Source: Naegleria gruberi
Lineage: Eukaryota
NCBI GenBank assembly: GCA_000004985.1
Contig: GG738857.1
Strand: one strand, 5' to 3'
DNA: 64,000 bases
In this document: one piece after another, positions 10,626 through 54,727 of the stretch
Layout of the letters: every line of letters starts with the position of its first letter
Numbering within the stretch: position 1 is the stretch's first letter
Translations under genes and position numbers: made by a program
The notes under the pieces: model-generated
Database searches by the model: none
Told to the model about the DNA's origin: nothing
Seen by the model: only the letters and a program-made list of their open reading frames with translations

Positions 10626-10725
10626 CTGTTAATCATAATATGATAATAATAATATGATAATAATAATAGAAAAATGTCAAATTTAGCCAAACATTTAGCA
10701 CCAACTGTTCATCAAGATAATCAAC

Positions 10726-12456
10726 ATGCAGCAGCAGATCATACCAGTATTATATGAACAAGCATTAAAACATGAAAGAGGTACAGCATTAACTTGTACA
10801 GGTGCACTTGTTGCTTTTAGTGGACAAAAGACAGGTCGTTCACCTAAAGATAAACGTATTGTTTCAGAAGAAACATCAAAAGATGATATTTGGTTTGGTC
10901 CTGTTAATATTCCATTAAGTGAAGATTCATTTATGGTTAATAGAGAACGTGCTGTTGATTATTTAAATACACGTGAACAATTATACGTTTTTGATGGTTA
11001 TGCTGGTTGGGATCCAAAATATAGAATTAAGATTAGAGTTGTTTCTACACGTGCTTATCATGCTCTATTCATGAGAAATATGTTAATTAGACCAACTCAA
11101 CAAGAATTATTAGATTTTGGTGAACCTGATTATGTTATTTATAATGCAGGTGAATTCCCTGCTAATCGTTATACTAAGGGTTTGTTTTTTTTTATTTTTA
11201 TACTATAACATACTAATATTTTATTACTTTATACTCTATCATTTATACTATCATATATACTATCATTTATACTATCATATCAATATATACATACTATTAT
11301 ATATTATAAAATAATAGGAATGACATCAAGTTGTTCAATTTCATTAAATTTTAAGAGACGTGAAATGGTAATATTAGGATCACAATATGCAGGTGAAATG
11401 AAGAAGGGAGTATTTACCATAATGCATTATTTAATGCCAAAACAAGGAGTACTTTCACTTCATAGTAGTTGTAATGAAGGTAAAGATGGTAGTGTTTCAT
11501 TATTTTTTGGATTATCAGGTACAGGTAAAACAACATTATCAGCAGATCCTAATAGATATTTAATTGGTGATGATGAACATGTATGGACAGAAAGTGGTGT
11601 TTTTAATATTGAAGGTGGTTGTTATGCTAAATGTATTGGTTTAAAGAGAGAAACTGAACCTGAAATTTATGATGCATTGAAATTTGGTTCAGTTTTAGAA
11701 AATGTAATGATGGATGAAGTTACACGTCAAGTTGAATATGAAAGTTCAGAAATTACAGAAAATACTCGTGCTTGTTATCCATTAGAATATATTCCAAATT
11801 CTAAAATACCTGCCATTACAAAACATCCAAACAATATCATTTTATTAACTTGTGATGCATTTGGTGTTTTACCACCTGTTTCTAAATTGAACATTCCACA
11901 AACAATGTATCATTTCATTAGTGGTTATACTGCTAAAGTAGCTGGTACTGAAGTTGGTGTTACTGAACCACAAGCTACATTCTCTGCCTGTTTTGGTGAA
12001 CCATTCCTTGTTTTACATCCAACTAAATATGCTGAAATGTTAGCTGAAAAATTAGAACAACACTCTGCAACTGCTTGGTTACTTAATACTGGATGGGTTG
12101 GTGGTAGTGCTGGTTCTAAATCAAAGGTACGTGGTAAGAGATGTCCATTAAAATATACACGTGCCATTATTGATGCTATTCATAATGGTGAATTGGTTCA
12201 AGCTCCAACTGTTGAAATGGAAATCTTTGGTTTGCATGTTCCAACTAAATGTACTGGTGTTCCAGATGATTTATTATTACCAAAGAATGCTTGGTCTGAT
12301 AAGGATGCCTACGATGATGAATTGAACAAGTTATGTATCTTGTTTAATAAGAACTTTGAAGCTTATGCTGATAGAGCTTCTCAACAAGTTCTTGCTGCTG
12401 GTCCAAAATCTACCTCCACTAAACATTACGATGTTAAACTCATTCGTGAAGCTTAA
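10726..12456 (+). CDS. pckA: Phosphoenolpyruvate carboxykinase (ATP), 2 exons: join(10726..11179,11318..12456); 5' start uncertain
   Basis: [11 protein letters not shown]...[27 protein letters not shown]|G|[49 protein letters not shown] are diagnostic of ATP-dependent PEPCK. A 138-nt AT-rich intron (GTTTGT...TAG) restores NRYTKGMTSS. An upstream ATG at 10674 (strong AAAATG context, coding-like codons, [23 protein letters not shown]) lies in the -1 frame relative to 10726. That is either a frameshift or sequencing indel, or 10726 is the true start. Confidence 0.85.
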
Positions 12457-12590
12457 ATAAATTTTATTATTCTTCTATTTTTGTACTATAATATTATTAA
12501 AGAAAAAGAGACAGAGTTGGGATGATCGTGCATGTTTACCTTTGAAATATTTCAATGATGAGTAACAAGTCCAGTCATATTAATTGAAAT

Positions 12591-13588
12591 TTAATGTTTT
12601 TTAACAGATAAAACAATTAAACCTCTTGGTACTAATTGAGCTTCCAATAATGTAACCTTCTTAAATTGACGAGAATCAAAATCCATGTTTGGATATTGTC
12701 TTCTGAACTGTAAATCATCAAATCTAATATCCTTTAAACCATCCGATGAAATTTTCAACAATACTTGTTGATATAAATCATTTAGAGTATTCTTTCCATA
12801 CAAGGTATTTTCAATCTTGACACAATTCCCATTTGGTAATCTTACTTGAATTGAACATGGAGTATTTATATTACATGATGAAATGGAAATTACATTGTTA
12901 CTACTTGAATTACTTGAATTGTTACTATTTGAATTACTATTACTTGAATCAAATATAGCTGATGGTGAATGTGAATTGGATGATAAATTATTTAATTTTT
13001 CTAATTTTTCTAATCTTTCTTTTTTATCTAATTCTAAATTTCTTCTAACTTGTTCCATTTCCTTCTTTTTTTTTAATTTTTCTAATTTTGCATGTTCAAT
13101 TTCCTTTTCACGTTGACGATTTCTAAATTTTTCCTTCTCTTCAATTGTATCACCTTTTAATCTGTAGGATGAACCAAAATTTTGTAAAATATATTCAACA
13201 GGTAAATAATTTAATTCATGATTAATATTTAAATCTTGAATTAAATTATTAATTGTAAATGCAAATTCACTTTCATCATTTTCAATAATTAAATTACCAT
13301 TTGGAGTTAATTCTAATTCTTTTAAATTATATAAATTCATATTTTAAATAATGGTATTTTAATTTTAATACCATTATAATCTTTTCCTTTTTCAGAATTA
13401 AATATATATTGACATATTTGTGTTAATTTATCATTTGATTCAAATTTAACTTTACTAATTGAACCATCTATAAATCTAATTTGTAAAATACATGGTTCAT
13501 TTTCTTCTAATTGACTTTCAAATATAGTTTCAGTTATTTCATTTGGTTTAGTTGGTGAATTTAATTTTAGACTATTATCTATATTCAT
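12591..13588 (-). CDS. UBX-domain protein (ASPL/TUG- or p47-like; UBL/UBX-like N-domain plus C-terminal UBX), join(12591..13318,13372..13588) with a 53-nt intron
   Basis: C-terminal UBX motif (CSIQVRLPNGNCVKIENTLYGKNTLNDLYQQV...FRRQYP...TLLEAQLVPRGLIVL) and an N-terminal UBX/UBL-like segment (PCILQIRFIDGSISKVKFESNDKLTQICQYIF). Track ORFs 13337..13588 and 12591..13340 join in frame through a GTATTA...AAG intron at 13319..13371. Confidence 0.65.
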
Positions 13589-13952
13589 TTTCAGAATTTA
13601 ATTTTTCTAAATATTTCTTTTTTTCTGTATTTGGATTTAAAATTGAAATTAAATTTGATGGAATTAATGATTCTCTTTCTTTTAATATTTCTTCATTGGA
13701 TTTTTCAATTAATTTTAATTTTTTAGTTTTTATATTATTATTATTATTAGGAGTATTTGATGATATATTATTATTAATAGTTGTCGTGTTATTTGATGAT
13801 GAAGGTGATGATGATGATATACTATTATTATTATTATTTAAATTTGATGGTGATGGAGGTGGAGTAGAAGTATTGTTGTTACCTAATAAACGATTTCTTC
13901 TCTCTGCTGCTAAACGACGATAATCAGCAAGTGGATCCGATGATGATGACAT
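13575..13952 (-). CDS. S/N/P-rich N-terminal ORF, probably the 5' part of the UBX gene; joins the downstream part only through a +1 frame break at 13575-13590
   Basis: 125-aa ORF (MSSSSDPLADYRRLAAERRNR...KKYLEKLNSENEYR*) overlaps the next ORF by 14 nt in a different frame. No GT donor exists on this strand within about 240 nt upstream of its stop, so no intron can join them. The breakpoint lies next to an A-run (GAAAATGAATATAG). Confidence 0.4.
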   Translation of the reverse strand: MSSSSDPLADYRRLAAERRNRLLGNNNTSTPPPSPSNLNNNNNSISSSSPSSSNNTTTINNNISSNTPNNNNNIKTKKLKLIEKSNEEILKERESLIPSNLISILNPNTEKKKYLEKLNSENEYR

Positions 13953-14315
13953 TTTTTTTTAATGTTCATTGTTCAAATTGATCCAATATTTACTGTTACA
14001 TTGATTCAATAGGATGAACTTGAAGTGACACTCATAATTATTTTAAAAATTACCAATGGAAAACCAACAACTTCATTTGAATAATTGTAAACTTTTCCCA
14101 TTGAAATAGCTTGTAAAACAATTTCTATGTCTGATTCTTTAAATTAAACTTGAACTTGTTTCCATTGAACAAGTTTAAATTGTTTAAGTTTACCAAACTC
14201 TTCAGCCTTAATATCAAAAAATTTTTATTGAAAGCAATATTACACTTAAAGCTACAATTAAGGTTCCTTTTTAGAACAGCTAGAAATATTATGTTGAAAG
14301 AGAATTAATGTGAAA

Positions 14316-14386
14316 TCGGGTGTGGTATAGTGGTAGCATTCCAGACTGTCACTCTGGCGACCCGGGTTCAATTCCCGGCACTCGAG
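14316..14386 (+). tRNA. tRNA-Asp (anticodon GTC)
   Basis: Hand-folded cloverleaf. Acceptor TCGGGTG/CACTCGA (one G-U pair). D-arm GTATAGTGGTAGCAT. Anticodon stem CCAGA/TCTGG with loop CTGTCAC, anticodon GTC. T-arm CCGGGTTCAATTCCCGG. Discriminator G. Confidence 0.8.
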
Positions 14387-15055
14387 ATTAATTTTTGACA
14401 TTATCTCCAAAATTTGAGTTTTAATTTTTTCATCATAAGAGGAATGATATGTAATCTAGCCAATTATCAATTTTCAAAGTTATATCTCTTAAAACCACCG
14501 AGAAAATAATCAAAGATTTTAAAGTGTCATATTCCTTAAAAATATTCCAAGATGCCCTTTTTAGTTCCATTTGTTCTTTCCTCTCATTGTTTTCCTGCAT
14601 AACTCAATGGTTGTTGATATGATGGAATTGCCTTCTTATCAAATGTCTTAATTTCAACACGAAGAGCAAGAAGAAGATATCTATTTGGGAGAAAATTCAA
14701 ATCCAAAATTGGAATATATTCTCTAACTTTAATATTTTGTAAAATATTGATTGACAAAATTGAAAAAACACACCTTCCCATTTGAGATTAGGAATTAATT
14801 TCCAAAAGTATTGAATACTTGCAATCATGATTACCTTGTTTTTGGTTTCTTCTGCATTGATGGATTGAAAATTTTTGGGTTAACATTTGTCGAGTAATGG
14901 AGCTAGACCATTGATCAGTTTGATTGTTGGCAGTTAAAGCTTTTGTGTAAAATGGAAGAAACAACTTGTTTTGGATCTAGATCATCTAATCTAGTTTCTG
15001 ATAGATTGTTGAAAGATAAGGAAATTTCCACTGCCAGTAAACGAAGATATCCAAT

Positions 15056-15067
15056 CTTATATTCATT
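15056..15067 (+). promoter_or_regulatory. Conserved TATA-like upstream element CTTATATTCA(T/A)T at -29..-18 of 5S rRNA copy 1; identical element and spacing at 17024..17035 for copy 2
   Basis: The same 12-mer sits exactly 17 nt upstream of both 5S genes, while the rest of the 5' flanks diverge. A -25/-30 TATA-like box is a known requirement for 5S Pol III transcription in several eukaryotes. Confidence 0.45.
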
Positions 15068-15084
15068 GTGTTTGGGAAATGAAT

Positions 15085-15202
15085 GGCTACGGCCATATCA
15101 CGATGAATGCACCTCATCCCGTCCGATTTGAGAAGTTAAGCATCGTCGAGCCACATCAGTACTGAGGTTGGAGACAACTTGGGAACCTGTGGTGCTGTAG
15201 TC
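15085..15202 (+). rRNA. 5S ribosomal RNA gene, copy 1 (118 nt), followed by a T5 Pol III terminator
   Basis: GGCTACGGCCATA...CATCCCGTCCGATTTGAGAAGTTAAGC...AGTACTGAGGTTGGAGACAACTTGGGAACCTGTGGTGCTGTAGTC matches the eukaryotic 5S consensus. Helix I pairs 5' GGCTAC with 3' GTAGTC. Box-A/box-C-like internal regions are present. TTTTT follows. Confidence 0.9.
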
Positions 15203-15368
15203 TTTTTATCTTTATGGAGAGTTTGTTCATTTACAAGTAAGTTTAACGATGATTAATCTGTCTTTGGAAAGAGGTTAATGAAAGGAAGAAGTTTTGTTTG
15301 ATATTAACAATATTGGAAGCTTGTTTTTATTGATTCATTACAATATTGAGTACTGCCATTTTAAACAA

Positions 15369-15905
15369 TTAGAAAGCATTAATCAACTTTTTAGCTTCAG
15401 AATCAGCAGATGGACTTTGTCTTTCATTAGCAACCTTCATAATAAGAGTCAAATTGCAATCCAAAGTGACAACCAAATCAGTACCATTAACCTTGTAAGA
15501 ATATCCAAGGAAACCAGAAGATTCCTTACTATCAGCATTGTGGACAACTCTGAAAATCAATTTTTCCAATCCCATGAAAGCATCCTAACAATCAGGATCC
15601 TTGATGAATACCTTGGCAATTTCACTCATATTACTCAATCTTGGACTTTCAGTTAAGAATTTGATGCAATTATTCAACAAGGTATCTTCAGCAAATCTAT
15701 CACCATACTTGTATTTGGTTTCAGTTGGCAATGCAGCAAGAGAAGCCCAATCCAACAAGATGATCATCTTTGAATTGACTTGTTGAAGATTCTTGGTTGC
15801 AGGAACAATACGATTGTTGAATAATTCACGAACTACCTTCTTGAATGCCAAACCACTTCCACACATGTTTTCATTGAATAATTCTTCGTGAGTTTGTTGA
15901 GTCAT
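15369..15905 (-). CDS. Conserved-looking small protein gene (about 177 codons) interrupted by one in-frame TAG at 15585..15587; possible pseudogene, readthrough or sequence error
   Basis: Two track ORFs (15585..15905 and 15369..15575) are in the same frame, separated only by TAG plus 9 nt (...FIKDPDC * DAF MGLEKLIFRVVH...). Both halves show biased, highly-expressed-type codon usage with C-ending codons. No GT-AG intron can remove the stop; the only candidate is 40 nt and gives the wrong phase. Confidence 0.5.
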
Positions 15906-17052
15906 TTTGATATAAAGTTTGTTGAGGAGTTTTCAGATACAATCCAATATTGAATATTGTTTTTTTGTGTTGTTTTTATCATAAAGAATGGTCAATTGGA
16001 ATTTATAGAAATTTTATTGTGTAAGATTACAATATTTACAATGGAGTTTAATAGAGTCAATGGTTTTCTGAGAATTGAATTGGTTGAACATTTGTGGAAC
16101 AACCTTATTGAGAAGTCAGTAAGAGGAATGGTAACACCTCAGTATCATCTAACTATCGAATAGAACTCAACACAATTGGATATGAATAAAGGGAGGATAT
16201 TAGTTTACAATATTCTCATTTAACAGTCCTGATCGAGTTGCTTAAAATAATTAGTTGGGAACTCATTGTAACTTTTGGAACCACCAAAACGAAAAAAAAC
16301 TACATGGACATGTAAACACGCTCTCATGCAACATGCATGAATGGAAGTTGTCTTATGCCTATCAAAGTTAATATGAACCCAAAAATCTTCATTTCAAACA
16401 GGAATTCGTAATAGAACAAATTACGATTATGATTCAATATTATGAGGACGAATAAGCACATTATTACAAAACCTTAATATAGTGATATTCTAAAACTGGA
16501 GAACTAGTTACTTTGGAATGATCAAGGTGAGGAGTAATGTTATTGAAACGGAACGACAATTTATTGATTAGGACGGTTGTTTTGTTGTTTTTTGTCATTT
16601 TCTTTTGTTTATTCATGATTTTCATTAAATCAAAAATGTATCAACTTGTAAATAATTAAGTTGGAGGAATGGCTATTGCAATGCCAAAGGATTTTTTTAT
16701 CATCTTAATTGAAACATTCTACATTATTGCCTAATTTTTAATTTCTAACTACTACATGTTACGCAATTTCAAAGGCAATACTAAACTTCAAAGTGTTACC
16801 TCATCTTGGATGCTTGCAAACTGATAGCAAATAATGCTCAATTGAGAGTTGGTGTTTGGAATTTGTTTTGTAAAGACTTTGGAAAAGTTCAATATTTTCA
16901 CCTCTACTCTTATTTAAATCTTCAGCAGACAAATCATAAATATTTCCCAAAGAAATTTGAGAAGGTTGTTCAAGTGTGTTTCAATTAGGAGGTGTTAATA
17001 TTAACCGGGTTGATGATGTTAGCCTTATATTCAATATATTAATGTAATTGAT

Positions 17053-17170
17053 GGCTACGGCCATATCACTATGAATGCACCTCATCCCGTCCGATTTGAG
17101 AAGTTAAGCATAGTCGAGCCACATCAGTACTGAGGTTGGAGACAACTTGGGAACCTGTGGTGCTGTAGTC
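17053..17170 (+). rRNA. 5S ribosomal RNA gene, copy 2 (118 nt), followed by a T5 terminator
   Basis: Identical to copy 1 except nt 18 G>T and nt 60 C>A. Those two positions are predicted to pair in helix II, so the G:C to U:A change is compensatory. About 100 bp of 3' flank is also conserved between copies (TTTTTATCTT...CATTTACAAGT...AAGTTTAAyGATGATTAA...GTCTTGAAAGGAAGA). Confidence 0.9.
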
Positions 17171-17284
17171 TTTTTATCTTTTGAAACATCAAACATTTAC
17201 AAGTTCAAATTAAGTTTAATGATGATTAAGGTTTAAGAGTCTGTCTTGAAAGGAAGATGATGAAGATTATTTCTCTAAGAAAAA

Positions 17285-20212
17285 TTAATCAATCAAAACA
17301 ACCTTATTGAAAACTCTTTTAACAAGAGAGGCTTGATAAGTATTACATCCCAAAAGAAGTGAAGGTAGAATTGGTGCAAAAAAGACAGCAACTTCATCTA
17401 AGGCAATTGATTCAGGATGATAATCCATCATGTAATCAGTTAATAAAATTAATGAAAAGAAAAGGGAAATATCACCTGCACCATTCGTCTGCATTTCTTC
17501 AACAACAATATCACATAAGGATGAAAAAATCTTACCAAATTGTAATCCTATTAACTCAATTGCTCTAGATTGAACAAGTAATAAACCAGAGACTAGTATC
17601 TTATCTTGATAAGTTAATAGTAGATTTCTAATCTCTTCAGTTGTGTAAAAATCATAACTTGTCAAGTATTTCACAACCATAAGATATCGATCAATATTTT
17701 GGGCAAATATAGCTTGTGATCTATTACCATCATTTCTCAGTAAATCGTTATACATTAATCTTCCAAGTGCCCAAGAGGCATGAGTGAGAGTATCTATACG
17801 TTTTGATAAATTACTTGCATCAATGATAATTTGATCAGTAAAGAAAGTTTTAGGAGGTAAAGCTTCCTCAAATATTGTTGGTAATATAAAGTCATAGACA
17901 AAGCGTTTTCCTATAATTGTTGAAATATTAATATCACATGTTGTTGTATTTGTATCATGACCATCATTATCAAAAGGACACAAATCCAATAGTCCAACAT
18001 TACTCAGAATTCCAATTAACTGATAAATAGATCCTCTGGAAGTAGTTGATGAAATCTCAGTATATTCAATATAAGATCGTATCAACTTGGTCAAGAAGGT
18101 AAAGTAATTGCTCTCATTGAAAAAATTACAAATAGATTCAAAATTAGTAATTCTAGAAATTTCCTTAATAGCAACAATGTACGCTGATACAATTTCAACG
18201 TGCTCTTGAAGAGTACCATCTCTCCATATTTCTTCAATCTTTTCCTTAATATATAAAAGTATAGTTTTGAATTCAAATCCATCCTTAATAAAATCATACG
18301 AATCGTGTAGAGTTTCAAAATAGAAAATAATATTCTTCTTGTGATTTTCTGCTTTCTGTTCATCTGAAATATTTGATTGTGTCATGTATTCCACTCCATT
18401 ATTAGATTTACAAATAATTTCAAATAGACGAGTCAATAAATTTCTAAAATCGTCTACAAATGGACTATCAGAATATTCAATCTTATCAATTAGAGCACTT
18501 AATAAGATGCTATATTGTGACATGTTTGAAATGTTGGCTTCAAATGATTTGATGACACTTTTTATCAAATCATCAGTGATTCTAGATTCATGTACTTCAC
18601 TAAAATAGATTGATAATGAAAAACATGTATTCTCCCTCAATATTTCATCTGATGAATATAAATTCCTTTTCCATATTTCTAAAATTTTCAAATTAAACTC
18701 TGAAAGGTAATTAAAAGGTATTTTGAATTTTGAATTTCTCCTAATAAGTTGTTGCAATTTGATTTCATTACCAGATAGAAATAGTCTACTGAGTGATAGG
18801 GAAGCAAGCGTAGCAATTCGTTTTAAAATAGTATTTGATGGATAGTCATCATTTTCATTCAAGGTATTGATTAGAAAATCTCCAAAAGGGAATACAAAAG
18901 CCAATGCAAATTCTAGCTTGGCAAAACTAGTACTATACTCTGCATCTGTTGGAGGAGTACACAATTCTTCTAAATTTAAGCAAATAGTATTTAAAATTTT
19001 CGTTTTTACAATCCAAACATATTTTCCACAATTTCTAGAATTTACATTATTGATAATTGAAGAGTTGGACAAATCCTTCACTTCCTCATAGTCCTTATCT
19101 ATGAGGGATTTGATAAATTGTGCACTCAATGGTTTGGAGCCAGAAATATAAACCAATACTGAATTGGCAACATCTGAAGTTTCATCCTTCACTTTTTGAT
19201 TCCCTAATAATTGCTTTAATTCTGTATTTGGAAGTTCTGAAAAGTCATAAATACATTCTGCCAATATTGGTAAGTAAAATACAAATATTATACAATAGAA
19301 CCCCTTTAAAGTACTAATAGCTTGTGAATCCATATTGTGAGGAAGTTTTCTCTTTGGAATTACATCTTCCGAATCATCTTCCGAATCATCATCATCTGAA
19401 ATGTCATCATCTTCAACTGAACGTCTATCCATAAACTCTTGAAAAATAGACCAAAACAATAAAATTTGACGTAATAGTGCAGAATCTTGTTCTCGCAGTC
19501 GCCACTCTTGTCCACTAGTATTATCCTTGTAGAATTTTTCCTTCTTTTCTGAAAAGTATTTCAATAAAGCCAACATTGTGAAACATGATAATGAAGAACA
19601 TCCCTTCTCTCCAAATTCATAAATTGATTGTTTGCCCCAAGTTGTGAAGTCAACCTGCAACAATGTATAAAAGTGCATAATTATGTGTTGCCAATCTTGC
19701 ATATCATCCATAATATTCATTTGAAATGAATTGACAGTTTCTTTTAATATTGCTTTTGCAGCAATTTCCTTTGCACACTTTACAATACCAGGTGCAACAC
19801 TTTCTTCAATATAACTAAAGAATTGTAATATAGGTTCACTATCTAACTCTTCAACCATTTTAGTATACAATCCAGCATAAAGAAATATTACAATCATAAT
19901 TCTAATAGAAATCTTCTTTCCATCATCTTCTTTTGCAAAAGATTCAGTCAACCAAAACTTTTCACTCTCGGAAATTAAATCCTCATAACCGTATAGTTTT
20001 AAAACTTGATTAATCGTTTCTATTGTTTCCTGTTTGATTTTTGCTAAAACTTCTCTCTTCTGATCAAGTGTTTCAAGATGATGAATTTTATCTCGGATAA
20101 AAAGACAAGCCTTTTCAAAAAATTGTTTTAAACTATTATCTGATAGAGTACATGGATGAGAGGTGGAAACAAATTGTTTGGGTGTGAGTGGAAAGGATGG
20201 CATTGATGTCAT
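17285..20212 (-). CDS. Hypothetical large protein (975 aa), single continuous exon
   Basis: Uninterrupted 2.9-kb ORF starting ATGACATCAATGCC... Coding-type composition with no low-complexity tracts. Acidic DDDISDDDDSEDDSED stretch. No domain recognised by eye. Confidence 0.6.
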   Translation of the reverse strand: MTSMPSFPLTPKQFVSTSHPCTLSDNSLKQFFEKACLFIRDKIHHLETLDQKREVLAKIKQETIETINQVLKLYGYEDLISESEKFWLTESFAKEDDGKKISIRIMIVIFLYAGLYTKMVEELDSEPILQFFSYIEESVAPGIVKCAKEIAAKAILKETVNSFQMNIMDDMQDWQHIIMHFYTLLQVDFTTWGKQSIYEFGEKGCSSLSCFTMLALLKYFSEKKEKFYKDNTSGQEWRLREQDSALLRQILLFWSIFQEFMDRRSVEDDDISDDDDSEDDSEDVIPKRKLPHNMDSQAISTLKGFYCIIFVFYLPILAECIYDFSELPNTELKQLLGNQKVKDETSDVANSVLVYISGSKPLSAQFIKSLIDKDYEEVKDLSNSSIINNVNSRNCGKYVWIVKTKILNTICLNLEELCTPPTDAEYSTSFAKLEFALAFVFPFGDFLINTLNENDDYPSNTILKRIATLASLSLSRLFLSGNEIKLQQLIRRNSKFKIPFNYLSEFNLKILEIWKRNLYSSDEILRENTCFSLSIYFSEVHESRITDDLIKSVIKSFEANISNMSQYSILLSALIDKIEYSDSPFVDDFRNLLTRLFEIICKSNNGVEYMTQSNISDEQKAENHKKNIIFYFETLHDSYDFIKDGFEFKTILLYIKEKIEEIWRDGTLQEHVEIVSAYIVAIKEISRITNFESICNFFNESNYFTFLTKLIRSYIEYTEISSTTSRGSIYQLIGILSNVGLLDLCPFDNDGHDTNTTTCDINISTIIGKRFVYDFILPTIFEEALPPKTFFTDQIIIDASNLSKRIDTLTHASWALGRLMYNDLLRNDGNRSQAIFAQNIDRYLMVVKYLTSYDFYTTEEIRNLLLTYQDKILVSGLLLVQSRAIELIGLQFGKIFSSLCDIVVEEMQTNGAGDISLFFSLILLTDYMMDYHPESIALDEVAVFFAPILPSLLLGCNTYQASLVKRVFNKVVLID

Positions 20213-36184: not shown

Positions 36185-36257
36185 TGCTGACGGACGGGAT
36201 CGAACCGGCGACCAATGGCTTATTAGACCAACGCTCTACCGACTGAGCTACGCCAGC
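36185..36257 (-). tRNA. tRNA-Ile (anticodon AAT)
   Basis: Reverse complement GCTGGCGTAGCTCAGTCGGTAGAGCGTTGGTCTAATAAGCCATTGGTCGCCGGTTCGATCCCGTCCGTCAGC(A). Anticodon loop CTAATAA gives AAT. D-arm and T-loop (TTCGATC) are canonical. There is one mismatch in the anticodon stem (27:43 T-T) and one in the T-stem. Confidence 0.75.
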
Positions 36258-52979: not shown

Positions 52980-54727
52980 ATGGTCATTATTTCTGTCAGT
53001 GTTATTTCAAAGGCTGGCAAGCCTCTCATCGCTAGACAATTCCGTGATATTAGCAGAGTTAGATTGGAGGGTTTGTTGAGTGCTTTCCCAAAATTGATGG
53101 ATCCAAAGTCCCAACACACCTTTGTTGAAACAGACTCTGTTAGATATGTATATCAATCATTGGATCAATTATTCCTCGTTTTGATCACTACAAAAACTAG
53201 TAATATTGTTGAAGATTTGGAAACTTTACAATTATTCTCTAGAATTGTATGTAAGATATTATTTATACAACAAACAACAACAACATTGATTAACTTTCAA
53301 TTTATTTGCGGAATTAGATTAAAGATATTTGTTTCTCCAATCAAAGAAACTCTGGAACAGGTATTGGTGAAGAAATTATTAGTGAAAATGCTTTCGATTT
53401 AATGTTTGCTTTTGATGAAATTGTATCATTAGGTTATAGAGAATCTGTATCATTGGGTCAAGTTAAAGATATTCTTAAAATGGATTCACAAGAAGAAAAT
53501 CTCCAAGAAGCTATCAAACAAAGACAAATCGAAAATGCCCAATCACATGCTACAATGAAGGCAACAGAAATTGCTATGCAAATTGCAAATAATGGAGGAA
53601 TTCGTACTGGTGGTATTTCAAGTGCAGATAGAGGTATCGGTTCAAGTGGAGGTTCAAGACCAACAGATGTTTATGTTCCACCATCAAATCAAGGAAAGTA
53701 TTCTGGTATTGGATCAGGATCTCGTGAAACATCCTCTAATGTTACTTCATCTTCGTCATCATCATCAGGAGGCTTACCAGCACAAAATACATCCGATAGA
53801 AAACTTAAGGAACAATCTAAACCAAGCAGTCTTAAACAAATGATTTTGAACAGACCAAATAGTAAGAAAGGTTCTCATTCTTTATTGAATGATCTTGTTT
53901 CTAAGGGAGATATTACTCCAACTATTGCTGAAAATACATCAGTACCAGTTTCAACAAAGATTGAATCTGTTGCTGAACAACAAAAGAAAGTTAAGGTTGA
54001 AGATATTCACTTACAAGTTAAGGAAACTTTACAAGTTGAAACAAATAGAGAAGGTGGATTAAATAGTTTGGATGTTAAGGGTGAAATGCACTTGGCAATT
54101 AACGAAACTGGAAACGGTTTTATCAAAGTTAGACTTGTAAATGATTTGAAGGATGGTTTTGTTTCTAAAATACATCCAAATATTGATAAGAAGGAATTTA
54201 GTGATCAACGTACTCTTGCTTTGAAGAGAACTGATAAACCATTCCCAACAGGTAATCCTCTCAAGATTTTAACATGGCGTTCACAAGGAAACTTTGATGA
54301 ATCTGTTTTACCTTTTACTGTAAATTGTTGGCCAAACCCTTCTGGTGGTGAAACTACAGTCAGTATCGAATATAATTTGCAAGACACCAGTGCAGAACTC
54401 CAAAATGTAACAATTTCTGTACCAATTCCAACAAAGGAAGTATCAGTTGAAAGTGCTGATGTTGGTACTTATAGAGTTGATCAAAAGAATGGAAAGTTCA
54501 TTTGGTCATTCGATTTAATTGATTCTTCATGTGCTAGTGGTAGCATTGAATTTGTAATTAATGAGAGAGCTGATGAATCAAGCTTCTTCCCTGTTGATGT
54601 TTCATTCACCTCTGAATACTCAATGTCAGGAACTGAAATTAGAGATGTTTTATCTGTAACTGATTCTTCTGAACAACGATATTCTGTAGAGAAATCTTTG
54701 ACTGTTGCTGAATATAAGATTGTTTAA
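52980..54727 (+). CDS. copd: Coatomer subunit delta (ARCN1/delta-COP), 2 exons: join(52980..53246,53318..54727); intron 71 nt
   Basis: [85 protein letters not shown]|IKDIC...[18 protein letters not shown] aligns with human ARCN1 (MVLLAAAVCTKAGKAIVSRQF...LFSRVIPEYC...CFDLIFAFDEIVALGYRE). Confidence 0.9.

What the first reader, a model, noticed from the sequence alone, without database searches (positions are those of the whole stretch)
15056..17280. Two tandem chromosomal 5S rRNA genes among Pol II genes, differing by a compensatory base-pair substitution
Both 118-nt 5S copies are directly oriented, about 2 kb apart, each ending in T5. They differ at only two positions (nt 18 G>T and nt 60 C>A). 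Those two positions are predicted to pair in helix II, so G:C becomes U:A. This covariation argues that both copies are under structural selection rather than one being a decaying duplicate. In D. discoideum the 5S genes sit on the extrachromosomal rDNA palindrome, so dispersed, Pol II-gene-linked 5S copies point to a different dictyostelid or a different 5S organisation.
Basis: partly seen in the sequence, partly recalled or inferred. Interest (0 to 1): 0.6.

Follow-up and report, generated by a model that had tools for sequence, protein, structure and literature searches.

The report
Two known Naegleria 5S rRNA genes
These are two intact members of the roughly 280-copy dispersed chromosomal 5S rRNA gene family of the amoeboflagellate Naegleria gruberi (not a dictyostelid); both are already listed in a 2012 catalogue, and their only two differences form a genuine compensatory base-pair swap, which is what a functional rRNA gene family is expected to show.

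Summary
Rfam RF00001 finds two full-length 5S rRNA genes at 15085-15203 and 17053-17171 (+ strand, 105.4 and 104.8 bits). They differ only at nt 18 (G>U) and nt 60 (C>A). These two positions are partners in helix II, so G:C becomes U:A. Both alleles give the same fold, and the single-mutant intermediates are destabilised. In related environmental 5S genes the same pair occurs as G:C, A:U and U:A.

The taxonomic interpretation is wrong. A window ORF is identical to Naegleria gruberi NEG-M XP_002679566.1, and PEPCK is 90% identical to N. fowleri against about 70% for dictyostelids. In Naegleria the 18S/5.8S/28S genes sit on a circular plasmid (CERE). Feng et al. 2012 (PMC3369914) already reported 279 chromosomal 5S genes unlinked to rDNA. 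Their Table S1 lists scaffold_13:175088 and 177056, which have the same 1968-bp spacing as this pair.

The pair is an old local duplication of about 250 bp. The flanks have diverged strongly while the genes stayed 98.3% identical. This points to purifying selection, gene conversion or both. Pairs about 2 kb apart are common in that catalogue. Verdict: real, ordinary and already known; low interest.

The parts
15085..15203 (+). 5S rRNA gene, copy 1 (allele G18:C60)
   Evidence: RF00001 105.4 bits, model 1-120. Corresponds to Feng et al. Table S1 R33851, scaffold_13:175088-175204.
17053..17171 (+). 5S rRNA gene, copy 2 (allele U18:A60)
   Evidence: RF00001 104.8 bits, model 1-120. Two differences from copy 1, at paired positions. 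Corresponds to Table S1 R33850, scaffold_13:177056-177172.
15056..15065 (+). Upstream TATA-like block CTTATATTCA at -29..-20 of copy 1 (putative Pol III upstream promoter element)
   Evidence: Identical block at the same distance from copy 2. Feng et al. report a TATA box upstream of N. gruberi 5S genes. Function is inferred.
17024..17033 (+). Upstream TATA-like block CTTATATTCA at -29..-20 of copy 2
15203..15207 (+). T5 run: putative Pol III terminator of copy 1
   Evidence: Sequence TTTTTATCT. Role inferred from general Pol III biology.
17171..17175 (+). T5 run: putative Pol III terminator of copy 2
   Evidence: Sequence TTTTTATCT
15208..15300 (+). Downstream flank of copy 1 with blocks shared only with copy 2 (CATTTACAAG, TAAGTTTAAYGATGATTAA, TCTGTCTT, GAAAGGAAGA): a remnant of the duplication
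   Evidence: (D16). The blocks are absent from the near-identical environmental gene L010 and from all other sequence held.
17176..17262 (+). Downstream flank of copy 2 with the same shared blocks
15369..15905 (-). Context: member of an N. gruberi-specific orphan multi-copy protein family between the two 5S genes. It has an in-frame TAG at 15585-15587 where paralogs have Lys.
   Evidence: tblastn with P0127 gives 93% identity over 178 aa. Family P0127-P0134. No Pfam domain.
14316..14386 (+). Context: tRNA-Asp(GTC), a third Pol III gene in the same orientation, 699 bp upstream of copy 1
17285..20212 (-). Context: 975-aa ORF convergent with copy 2; its stop codon lies 114 bp from the 5S 3' end

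Best explanation
The two features are functional members of the dispersed, multi-copy nuclear 5S rRNA gene family of Naegleria gruberi. Each is an independent RNA polymerase III unit. Each has an A/T-rich TATA-like element at about -29 to -20, an internal control region (box A AGTTAAGC at +50, a box C-like element at +80) and a T5 terminator. The pair arose by a local duplication of a short segment of about 250 bp (about -30 to +100). That segment's flanks have since diverged heavily, while the 119-nt genes stayed 98.3% identical through purifying selection, gene conversion with other family members, or both. The only two differences convert the helix II pair G18:C60 into U18:A60, which keeps the 5S fold. 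Shown: gene identity, pairing, covariation, organism and prior cataloguing. Inferred: transcription, promoter and terminator function, and the duplication and selection history.
For: Both copies are full-length RF00001 matches. There are two differences only. They fall at CM-paired positions, both alleles give the same MFE fold (-41.5 and -40.1 kcal/mol) and the single mutants break the pair (-35.5 and -37.8). On 13 related 5S genes, 98.8% of cells are paired, 13 pairs show double changes against 1-3 in slid controls, and pair 18:60 reads GC:6, AU:2, UA:2. The organism is N. gruberi NEG-M by exact protein match and PEPCK similarity. Feng et al. 2012 report 279 5S genes, not linked to rDNA, with a TATA box and ICR, and their Table S1 lists scaffold_13 175088 and 177056, which is the same 1968-bp spacing. 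Flank identity is 69% upstream (hand count on the alignment) and about 56% of columns downstream with indels, against 98.3% in the gene. The flank blocks are pair-specific. There is no SSU or LSU rRNA in the window. The CERE plasmid carries only 18S/5.8S/28S.
Against: Expression of either copy was not tested. Box C matches the metazoan consensus only with 2 mismatches, and TFIIIA was not found in N. gruberi by Feng et al., so the internal promoter logic is uncertain. I could not retrieve the other ~277 N. gruberi copies. It is therefore unknown whether U18:A60 arose in this pair or was imported by gene conversion, and whether it is rare or common.
Confidence: 0.9

Rival explanations
1. One of the two copies (most likely the U18:A60 copy 2) is a silent or decaying duplicate, and the compensatory look of the two substitutions is coincidental.
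For: Only two copies are compared. With about 279 family members, some are surely pseudogenes; Table S1 contains truncated, low-similarity entries.
Against: Copy 2 is full length, scores within 0.6 bits of copy 1 and retains the upstream block and T5 run. The chance of a random canonical partner double hit is about 0.2%. The flanks are far more diverged than the gene. U:A at this pair also occurs in an independent environmental 5S gene, L013.
Confidence: 0.05
2. The U18:A60 allele did not arise in this pair. It is an older family variant, present in several of the ~279 copies and copied into copy 2 (or removed from copy 1) by gene conversion. The two differences would then be one conversion event, not two selected substitutions.
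For: Gene identity (98.3%) is much higher than flank identity, as expected under concerted evolution. Similarity values in Table S1 fall into a few discrete classes, which suggests shared variants. An environmental group of dispersed 5S genes shows the same few helix II alleles recurring in different flanks.
Against: None directly. This refines the main explanation rather than contradicting it, and it still implies that both alleles are structurally sound. The other N. gruberi copies could not be retrieved.
Confidence: 0.4
3. The copies are a misassembled or collapsed fragment of an rDNA element.
For: Naegleria does have a high-copy extrachromosomal rDNA element.
Against: The window contains no 18S, 5.8S or 28S match. 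The CERE encodes only 18S/5.8S/28S. The copies are embedded in unique sequence with protein-coding genes that are syntenic with N. fowleri and N. lovaniensis on the PEPCK/UBX side. The flanks of the two copies differ.
Confidence: 0.01

Closest known systems
Naegleria gruberi nuclear 5S rRNA gene family (Feng et al. 2012, PLoS One 7:e36878, PMC3369914; Table S1 entries R33851 and R33850)
   Same: Same organism, same scaffold spacing (1968 bp), same gene, an upstream TATA-like element, an internal box A, and no linkage to the 18S-5.8S-28S unit.
   Different: Nothing structural; these are the same loci. The compensatory G18:C60 / U18:A60 difference, the pair-specific flank remnants and the excess of ~2-kb pairs are not mentioned in the parts of that paper I read (main-text passages, Table 1, Table S1).
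Dispersed 5S rRNA genes of other microbial eukaryotes (e.g. Neurospora, Schizosaccharomyces pombe, Acanthamoeba; from general knowledge, not tested here)
   Same: Individual Pol III units scattered among protein-coding genes, with unique flanks, upstream TATA-like elements and conserved gene bodies.
   Different: Different lineage (Heterolobosea). Here about a fifth of the copies have a neighbour within 5 kb.
Dictyostelium discoideum 5S genes on the extrachromosomal rDNA palindrome
   Same: Both organisms keep their large rRNA genes on an extrachromosomal element.
   Different: The window is not dictyostelid. In Naegleria the element is a circular plasmid without 5S, and the 5S genes are chromosomal and dispersed.

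Membership tests
5S rRNA (Rfam RF00001) | Covariance-model score above the gathering threshold over the full model | tested here: met
   105.4 and 104.8 bits against a threshold of 38; model 1-120 matched with no truncation
5S rRNA (Rfam RF00001) | Three-way-junction secondary structure (helices I-V) supported by base pairing and covariation | tested here: met
   All 34 model pairs are canonical in both copies. On 13 related sequences, 98.8% of cells are paired and 13 pairs show compensatory changes, against 1-3 in slid controls.
5S rRNA (Rfam RF00001) | Variable positions 18 and 60 are base-pairing partners (helix II) | tested here: met
   CM consensus structure, pair table, and pair 18:60 = GC 6, AU 2, UA 2 among distinct sequences
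Eukaryotic Pol III type 1 gene | Run of at least 4 T immediately after the gene (terminator) | tested here: met
   TTTTT at 15203-15207 and 17171-17175; sequence level only
Eukaryotic Pol III type 1 gene | Internal control region: box A, intermediate element, box C | tested here: inconclusive
   Box A consensus matches at +50 in both copies. Box C matches at +80 only with 2 mismatches. The IE pattern is too degenerate to be informative. Feng et al. call the ICR present but found no TFIIIA.
Eukaryotic Pol III type 1 gene | Transcription of both copies into stable 5S rRNA | not testable with these tools
   No expression data are available here
N. gruberi dispersed 5S family (Feng et al. 2012) | Located on N. 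gruberi nuclear scaffolds at catalogued coordinates | tested here: met
   Exact protein match to N. gruberi NEG-M on a 573,072-bp contig. Table S1 scaffold_13 175088 and 177056 are 1968 bp apart, as in the window, and the other scaffold_13 entries (103441, 280866) fall outside a window starting at 160001, consistent with only two Rfam hits.
N. gruberi dispersed 5S family (Feng et al. 2012) | Not linked to 18S-5.8S-28S rDNA | tested here: met
   No SSU, LSU or 5.8S match in 64 kb
Dictyostelid genome / rDNA-palindrome-type 5S | Host is a dictyostelid | tested here: not met
   PEPCK is 90% identical to N. fowleri against about 70% for dictyostelids, and there is an exact N. gruberi protein match

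The most novel reading that the evidence does not exclude
The excess of 5S gene pairs spaced 1.5-3 kb apart in N. gruberi (19 observed against about 3 expected) may be meaningful. Taken with this pair's short (~250 bp) duplicated unit separated by unrelated sequence, it could reflect a specific short-range copy-and-paste mechanism for Pol III genes, for example local reinsertion of a small 5S-containing DNA fragment. The U18:A60 allele could also mark a distinct expressed 5S variant class rather than neutral structural drift.
Probability: 0.1. Interest if true: 0.4.

Novelty: already known. Interest (0 to 1): 0.12.

Why it matters
It matters little beyond correct annotation. The window is Naegleria gruberi, whose 5S genes are already known to be numerous, chromosomal, dispersed and separate from the rDNA plasmid. 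The compensatory G:C/U:A difference is a clean small example of structural constraint in a multi-copy RNA gene family, and it confirms that both loci should be annotated as 5S rRNA genes. One point deserves care when citing the literature. The statement that Naegleria has 'no rRNA genes in the nuclear DNA' (PMC5805870) holds for 18S/5.8S/28S only.

Tried and rejected
(1) Alternative genetic code. An in-frame TAG in the ORF between the copies suggested a ciliate-type code. ORF statistics favour the standard code, and paralogs have Lys at that codon, so it is a nonsense change or a sequencing error.

(2) Retrieving other N. gruberi 5S loci. Exact-protein look-ups for N. gruberi proteins all returned nothing, so a census of alleles at positions 18 and 60 in the genome could not be made.

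(3) Conservation of the pair in sister species. The syntenic SIR2-PEPCK-UBX loci of N. fowleri and N. lovaniensis, and the Willaertia PEPCK locus, contain no 5S gene within 10 kb.

(4) Shared flank blocks as general 5S control elements. Rejected: they are absent from the near-identical environmental gene L010 and from all other loci. Only an A/T-rich TATA-like stretch near -25 recurs.

(5) A relic 5S at 16667 (16-nt match, D6). Rejected by the sensitive Rfam scan.

(6) A tandem duplication of the whole 1968-bp unit. No similarity was found beyond about -32 and +100.

(7) The orphan protein family as a constant companion of 5S genes. The one retrievable paralog contig (L019) has no 5S. That is n=1, so the test is weak.

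(8) Taxon label for the VFQM/VFQO environmental 5S group. The exact look-up found nothing, and the homology search gave at most 40% identity to anything named, so the group remains unassigned.

(9) Clark & Cross 1987 could not be read.

Full report
**Observation.** An Rfam gathering-threshold scan of the whole 64-kb window finds exactly two 5S rRNA genes. They lie at 15085-15203 and 17053-17171, both on the + strand, and score 105.4 and 104.8 bits against a threshold of 38. Both match the model from position 1 to 120. The scan also finds tRNA-Asp(GTC) at 14316-14386 (+) and tRNA-Ile(AAT) at 36185-36257 (-). It finds no 18S, 5.8S or 28S sequence. The two 5S genes are 119 nt each and differ at exactly two positions: nt 18 G>T and nt 60 C>A. 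Each gene ends in a T5 run, TTTTTATCT. The '118 nt' figure only depends on whether the first T of the run is counted.

**Do the two positions pair?** Yes.
- In the covariance-model alignment there are no indels before nt 18 and there is one deletion at model position 41. So nt 18 is model 18 and nt 60 is model 61.
- The consensus structure pairs model 17-21 with 62-58, which makes 18 and 60 partners in helix II (pair table).
- All 34 model pairs are canonical in both copies.
- Both alleles give the same minimum-free-energy fold with 18:60 paired, at -41.5 and -40.1 kcal/mol. The hypothetical single mutants U18/C60 and G18/A60 lose the pair and fold at -35.5 and -37.8.
- G:C to U:A is a double transversion, so it has no wobble intermediate.
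- If two differences fell at random on 119 nt, the chance that they hit partner positions and stayed canonical is about 0.2%.

**Independent support from related genes.** One metagenome scan with a 27-nt 5S core that excludes both variable sites returned 13 contigs, each with one 5S gene.
- L010 differs from copy 1 by a single base (T24A) and carries G18:C60.
- A second group (VFQM/VFQO contigs) differs from copy 1 at 26-30 positions, and each gene sits in a unique flank. This group shows G:C, A:U and U:A at the same pair. It also shows compensatory alternatives at the neighbouring pairs 17:61 and 19:59.
- I counted 13 sequences (10 distinct) against the Rfam structure. 98.8% of cells are canonical pairs. 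Thirteen pairs have changes on both sides, against 1-3 when partners are slid by 1-3 columns. In helix II, 6 of 7 pairs covary. Pair 18:60 reads GC 6, AU 2, UA 2.
- The taxon of the second group could not be established.

**Organism.** The window uses the standard genetic code and is 29% G+C. Its proteins are rich in N/Q/S/T runs, which explains the dictyostelid guess. That guess is wrong.
- The PEPCK exon at 11320-12456 is 90% identical to Naegleria fowleri, 85% to Willaertia magna and 72% to Acrasis kona. It is only about 70% identical to dictyostelids.
- The ORF at 12591-13340(-) is an exact match to N. gruberi NEG-M XP_002679566.1, on a 573,072-bp contig.

**What is known about 5S in this organism.**
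- Naegleria carries its 18S, 5.8S and 28S genes on a roughly 14-kb circular extrachromosomal element present in thousands of copies (PMC5805870).
- Feng et al. 2012 (PMC3369914) searched the N. gruberi genome and reported 279 putative 5S genes. They recorded them as not located with rDNA units, and as having an internal control region and a TATA box.
- Their Table S1 lists scaffold_13:175088-175204 and scaffold_13:177056-177172. These are 1968 bp apart, exactly the spacing of the two window copies.
- With the window starting at scaffold_13:160001, their start base (the T at gene position 4) matches. The two other scaffold_13 entries (103441, 280866) fall outside the window, which is consistent with Rfam finding only two copies.
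- Both genes are therefore already catalogued.

**Anatomy and history of the pair.**
- The similarity between the two loci extends from -29 (CTTATATTCA at 15056 and 17024, the same distance from both genes) to about +100. The downstream blocks are CATTTACAAG, TAAGTTTAAYGATGATTAA, TCTGTCTT and GAAAGGAAGA.
- Beyond these limits there is no detectable similarity.
- Within the shared region, the 29 upstream bases are 69% identical (hand count on the alignment). The downstream ~100 nt are identical in about 56% of alignment columns, with several indels. The genes are 98.3% identical.
- The flank blocks are absent from the near-identical environmental gene L010 and from every other locus held. They are therefore remnants of a pair-specific duplication, not general control elements. 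Only an A/T-rich TATA-like stretch near -25 recurs across genes.
- There is no relic 5S copy between the genes.
- From this I infer an old short-segment duplication. The gene bodies were then preserved by purifying selection, homogenised by gene conversion with other family members, or both.
- Box A (AGTTAAGC) sits at +50, and position 60 lies in its unspecified tail. A box C-like element sits at +80 with two mismatches to the metazoan consensus.

**Context.**
- The syntenic SIR2-PEPCK-UBX loci of N. fowleri and N. lovaniensis have no 5S gene within 10 kb. The pair is therefore not an ancient syntenic feature of the genus.
- Parsing Table S1 shows that 62 of 279 entries have a neighbour within 5 kb. 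Nineteen adjacent gaps fall in the 1.5-3 kb range, against about 3 expected for random placement in a ~41-Mb genome. Such pairs are therefore a recurrent feature of this genome.
- Between the two copies lies a member of an N. gruberi-specific orphan protein family. This copy has TAG where paralogs have Lys. The public gene model skips the stop with a 27-nt 'intron'.

**Verdict.** The observation and its structural reading are right. The taxonomic and organisational inference is wrong. The feature is an ordinary part of a gene family described in 2012. The limits of this analysis are that expression was not tested, and that the other N. gruberi copies could not be retrieved with these tools. 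The frequency and origin of the U18:A60 allele therefore remain open.

Noticed in passing
window 15369-15905 (-), stop at 15585-15587: The ORF between the two 5S genes belongs to a Naegleria gruberi-specific orphan multi-copy family (P0127-P0134, no Pfam domain). This copy has an in-frame TAG where paralogs read Lys (KDPDC*DAF against KDPDCKDAF). The public model P0128 (169 aa) removes it with a 27-nt 'intron', which looks like an annotation workaround for a pseudogene or a sequencing error.
   Followed up: partly
N. gruberi genome-wide (Table S1 of PMC3369914); window pair 15085/17053: The catalogue of 279 5S entries shows a strong excess of adjacent pairs 1.5-3 kb apart (19 against about 3 expected), and 62 entries have a neighbour within 5 kb. 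In the pair studied here only about 250 bp is duplicated, so this is not simple tandem duplication of the whole interval.
   Followed up: partly
window 14316-17171: Three Pol III genes (tRNA-Asp(GTC), 5S, 5S) lie in the same orientation within 2.9 kb. Both 5S genes are convergent with a minus-strand ORF whose stop codon lies 114-165 bp beyond the 5S 3' end.
   Followed up: no
L006-L009, L011-L017 (VFQM/VFQO metagenome contigs), e.g. L013:2227-2345: An unidentified eukaryote (33-38% G+C) has dispersed 5S genes whose positions 26-57 are identical to N. gruberi. These genes carry several helix II alleles (17:61 C:G/U:A; 18:60 G:C/A:U/U:A; 19:59 U:G/G:C) in different unique flanks. A neighbouring FGGY kinase on L013 has no relative above 40% identity, so the organism appears unsequenced.
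   Followed up: partly
L001, L004 against window 10700-17200: The SIR2-PEPCK-UBX gene order is shared with N. fowleri and N. lovaniensis. The segment beyond UBX differs: those species have no tRNA-Asp, no 5S pair and no orphan-family gene there, so the Pol III cluster was inserted in, or is retained only in, the N. gruberi lineage.
   Followed up: partly
literature (PMC5805870): [quoted passage not shown] This holds for 18S/5.8S/28S but not for 5S, which is chromosomal in hundreds of copies.
   Followed up: yes
window 54709-54718 (-): A third exact occurrence of the upstream block CTTATATTCA, with no RNA gene next to it in the Rfam scan. This is compatible with chance (2 of 100 shuffles reach 3 matches).
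   Followed up: partly
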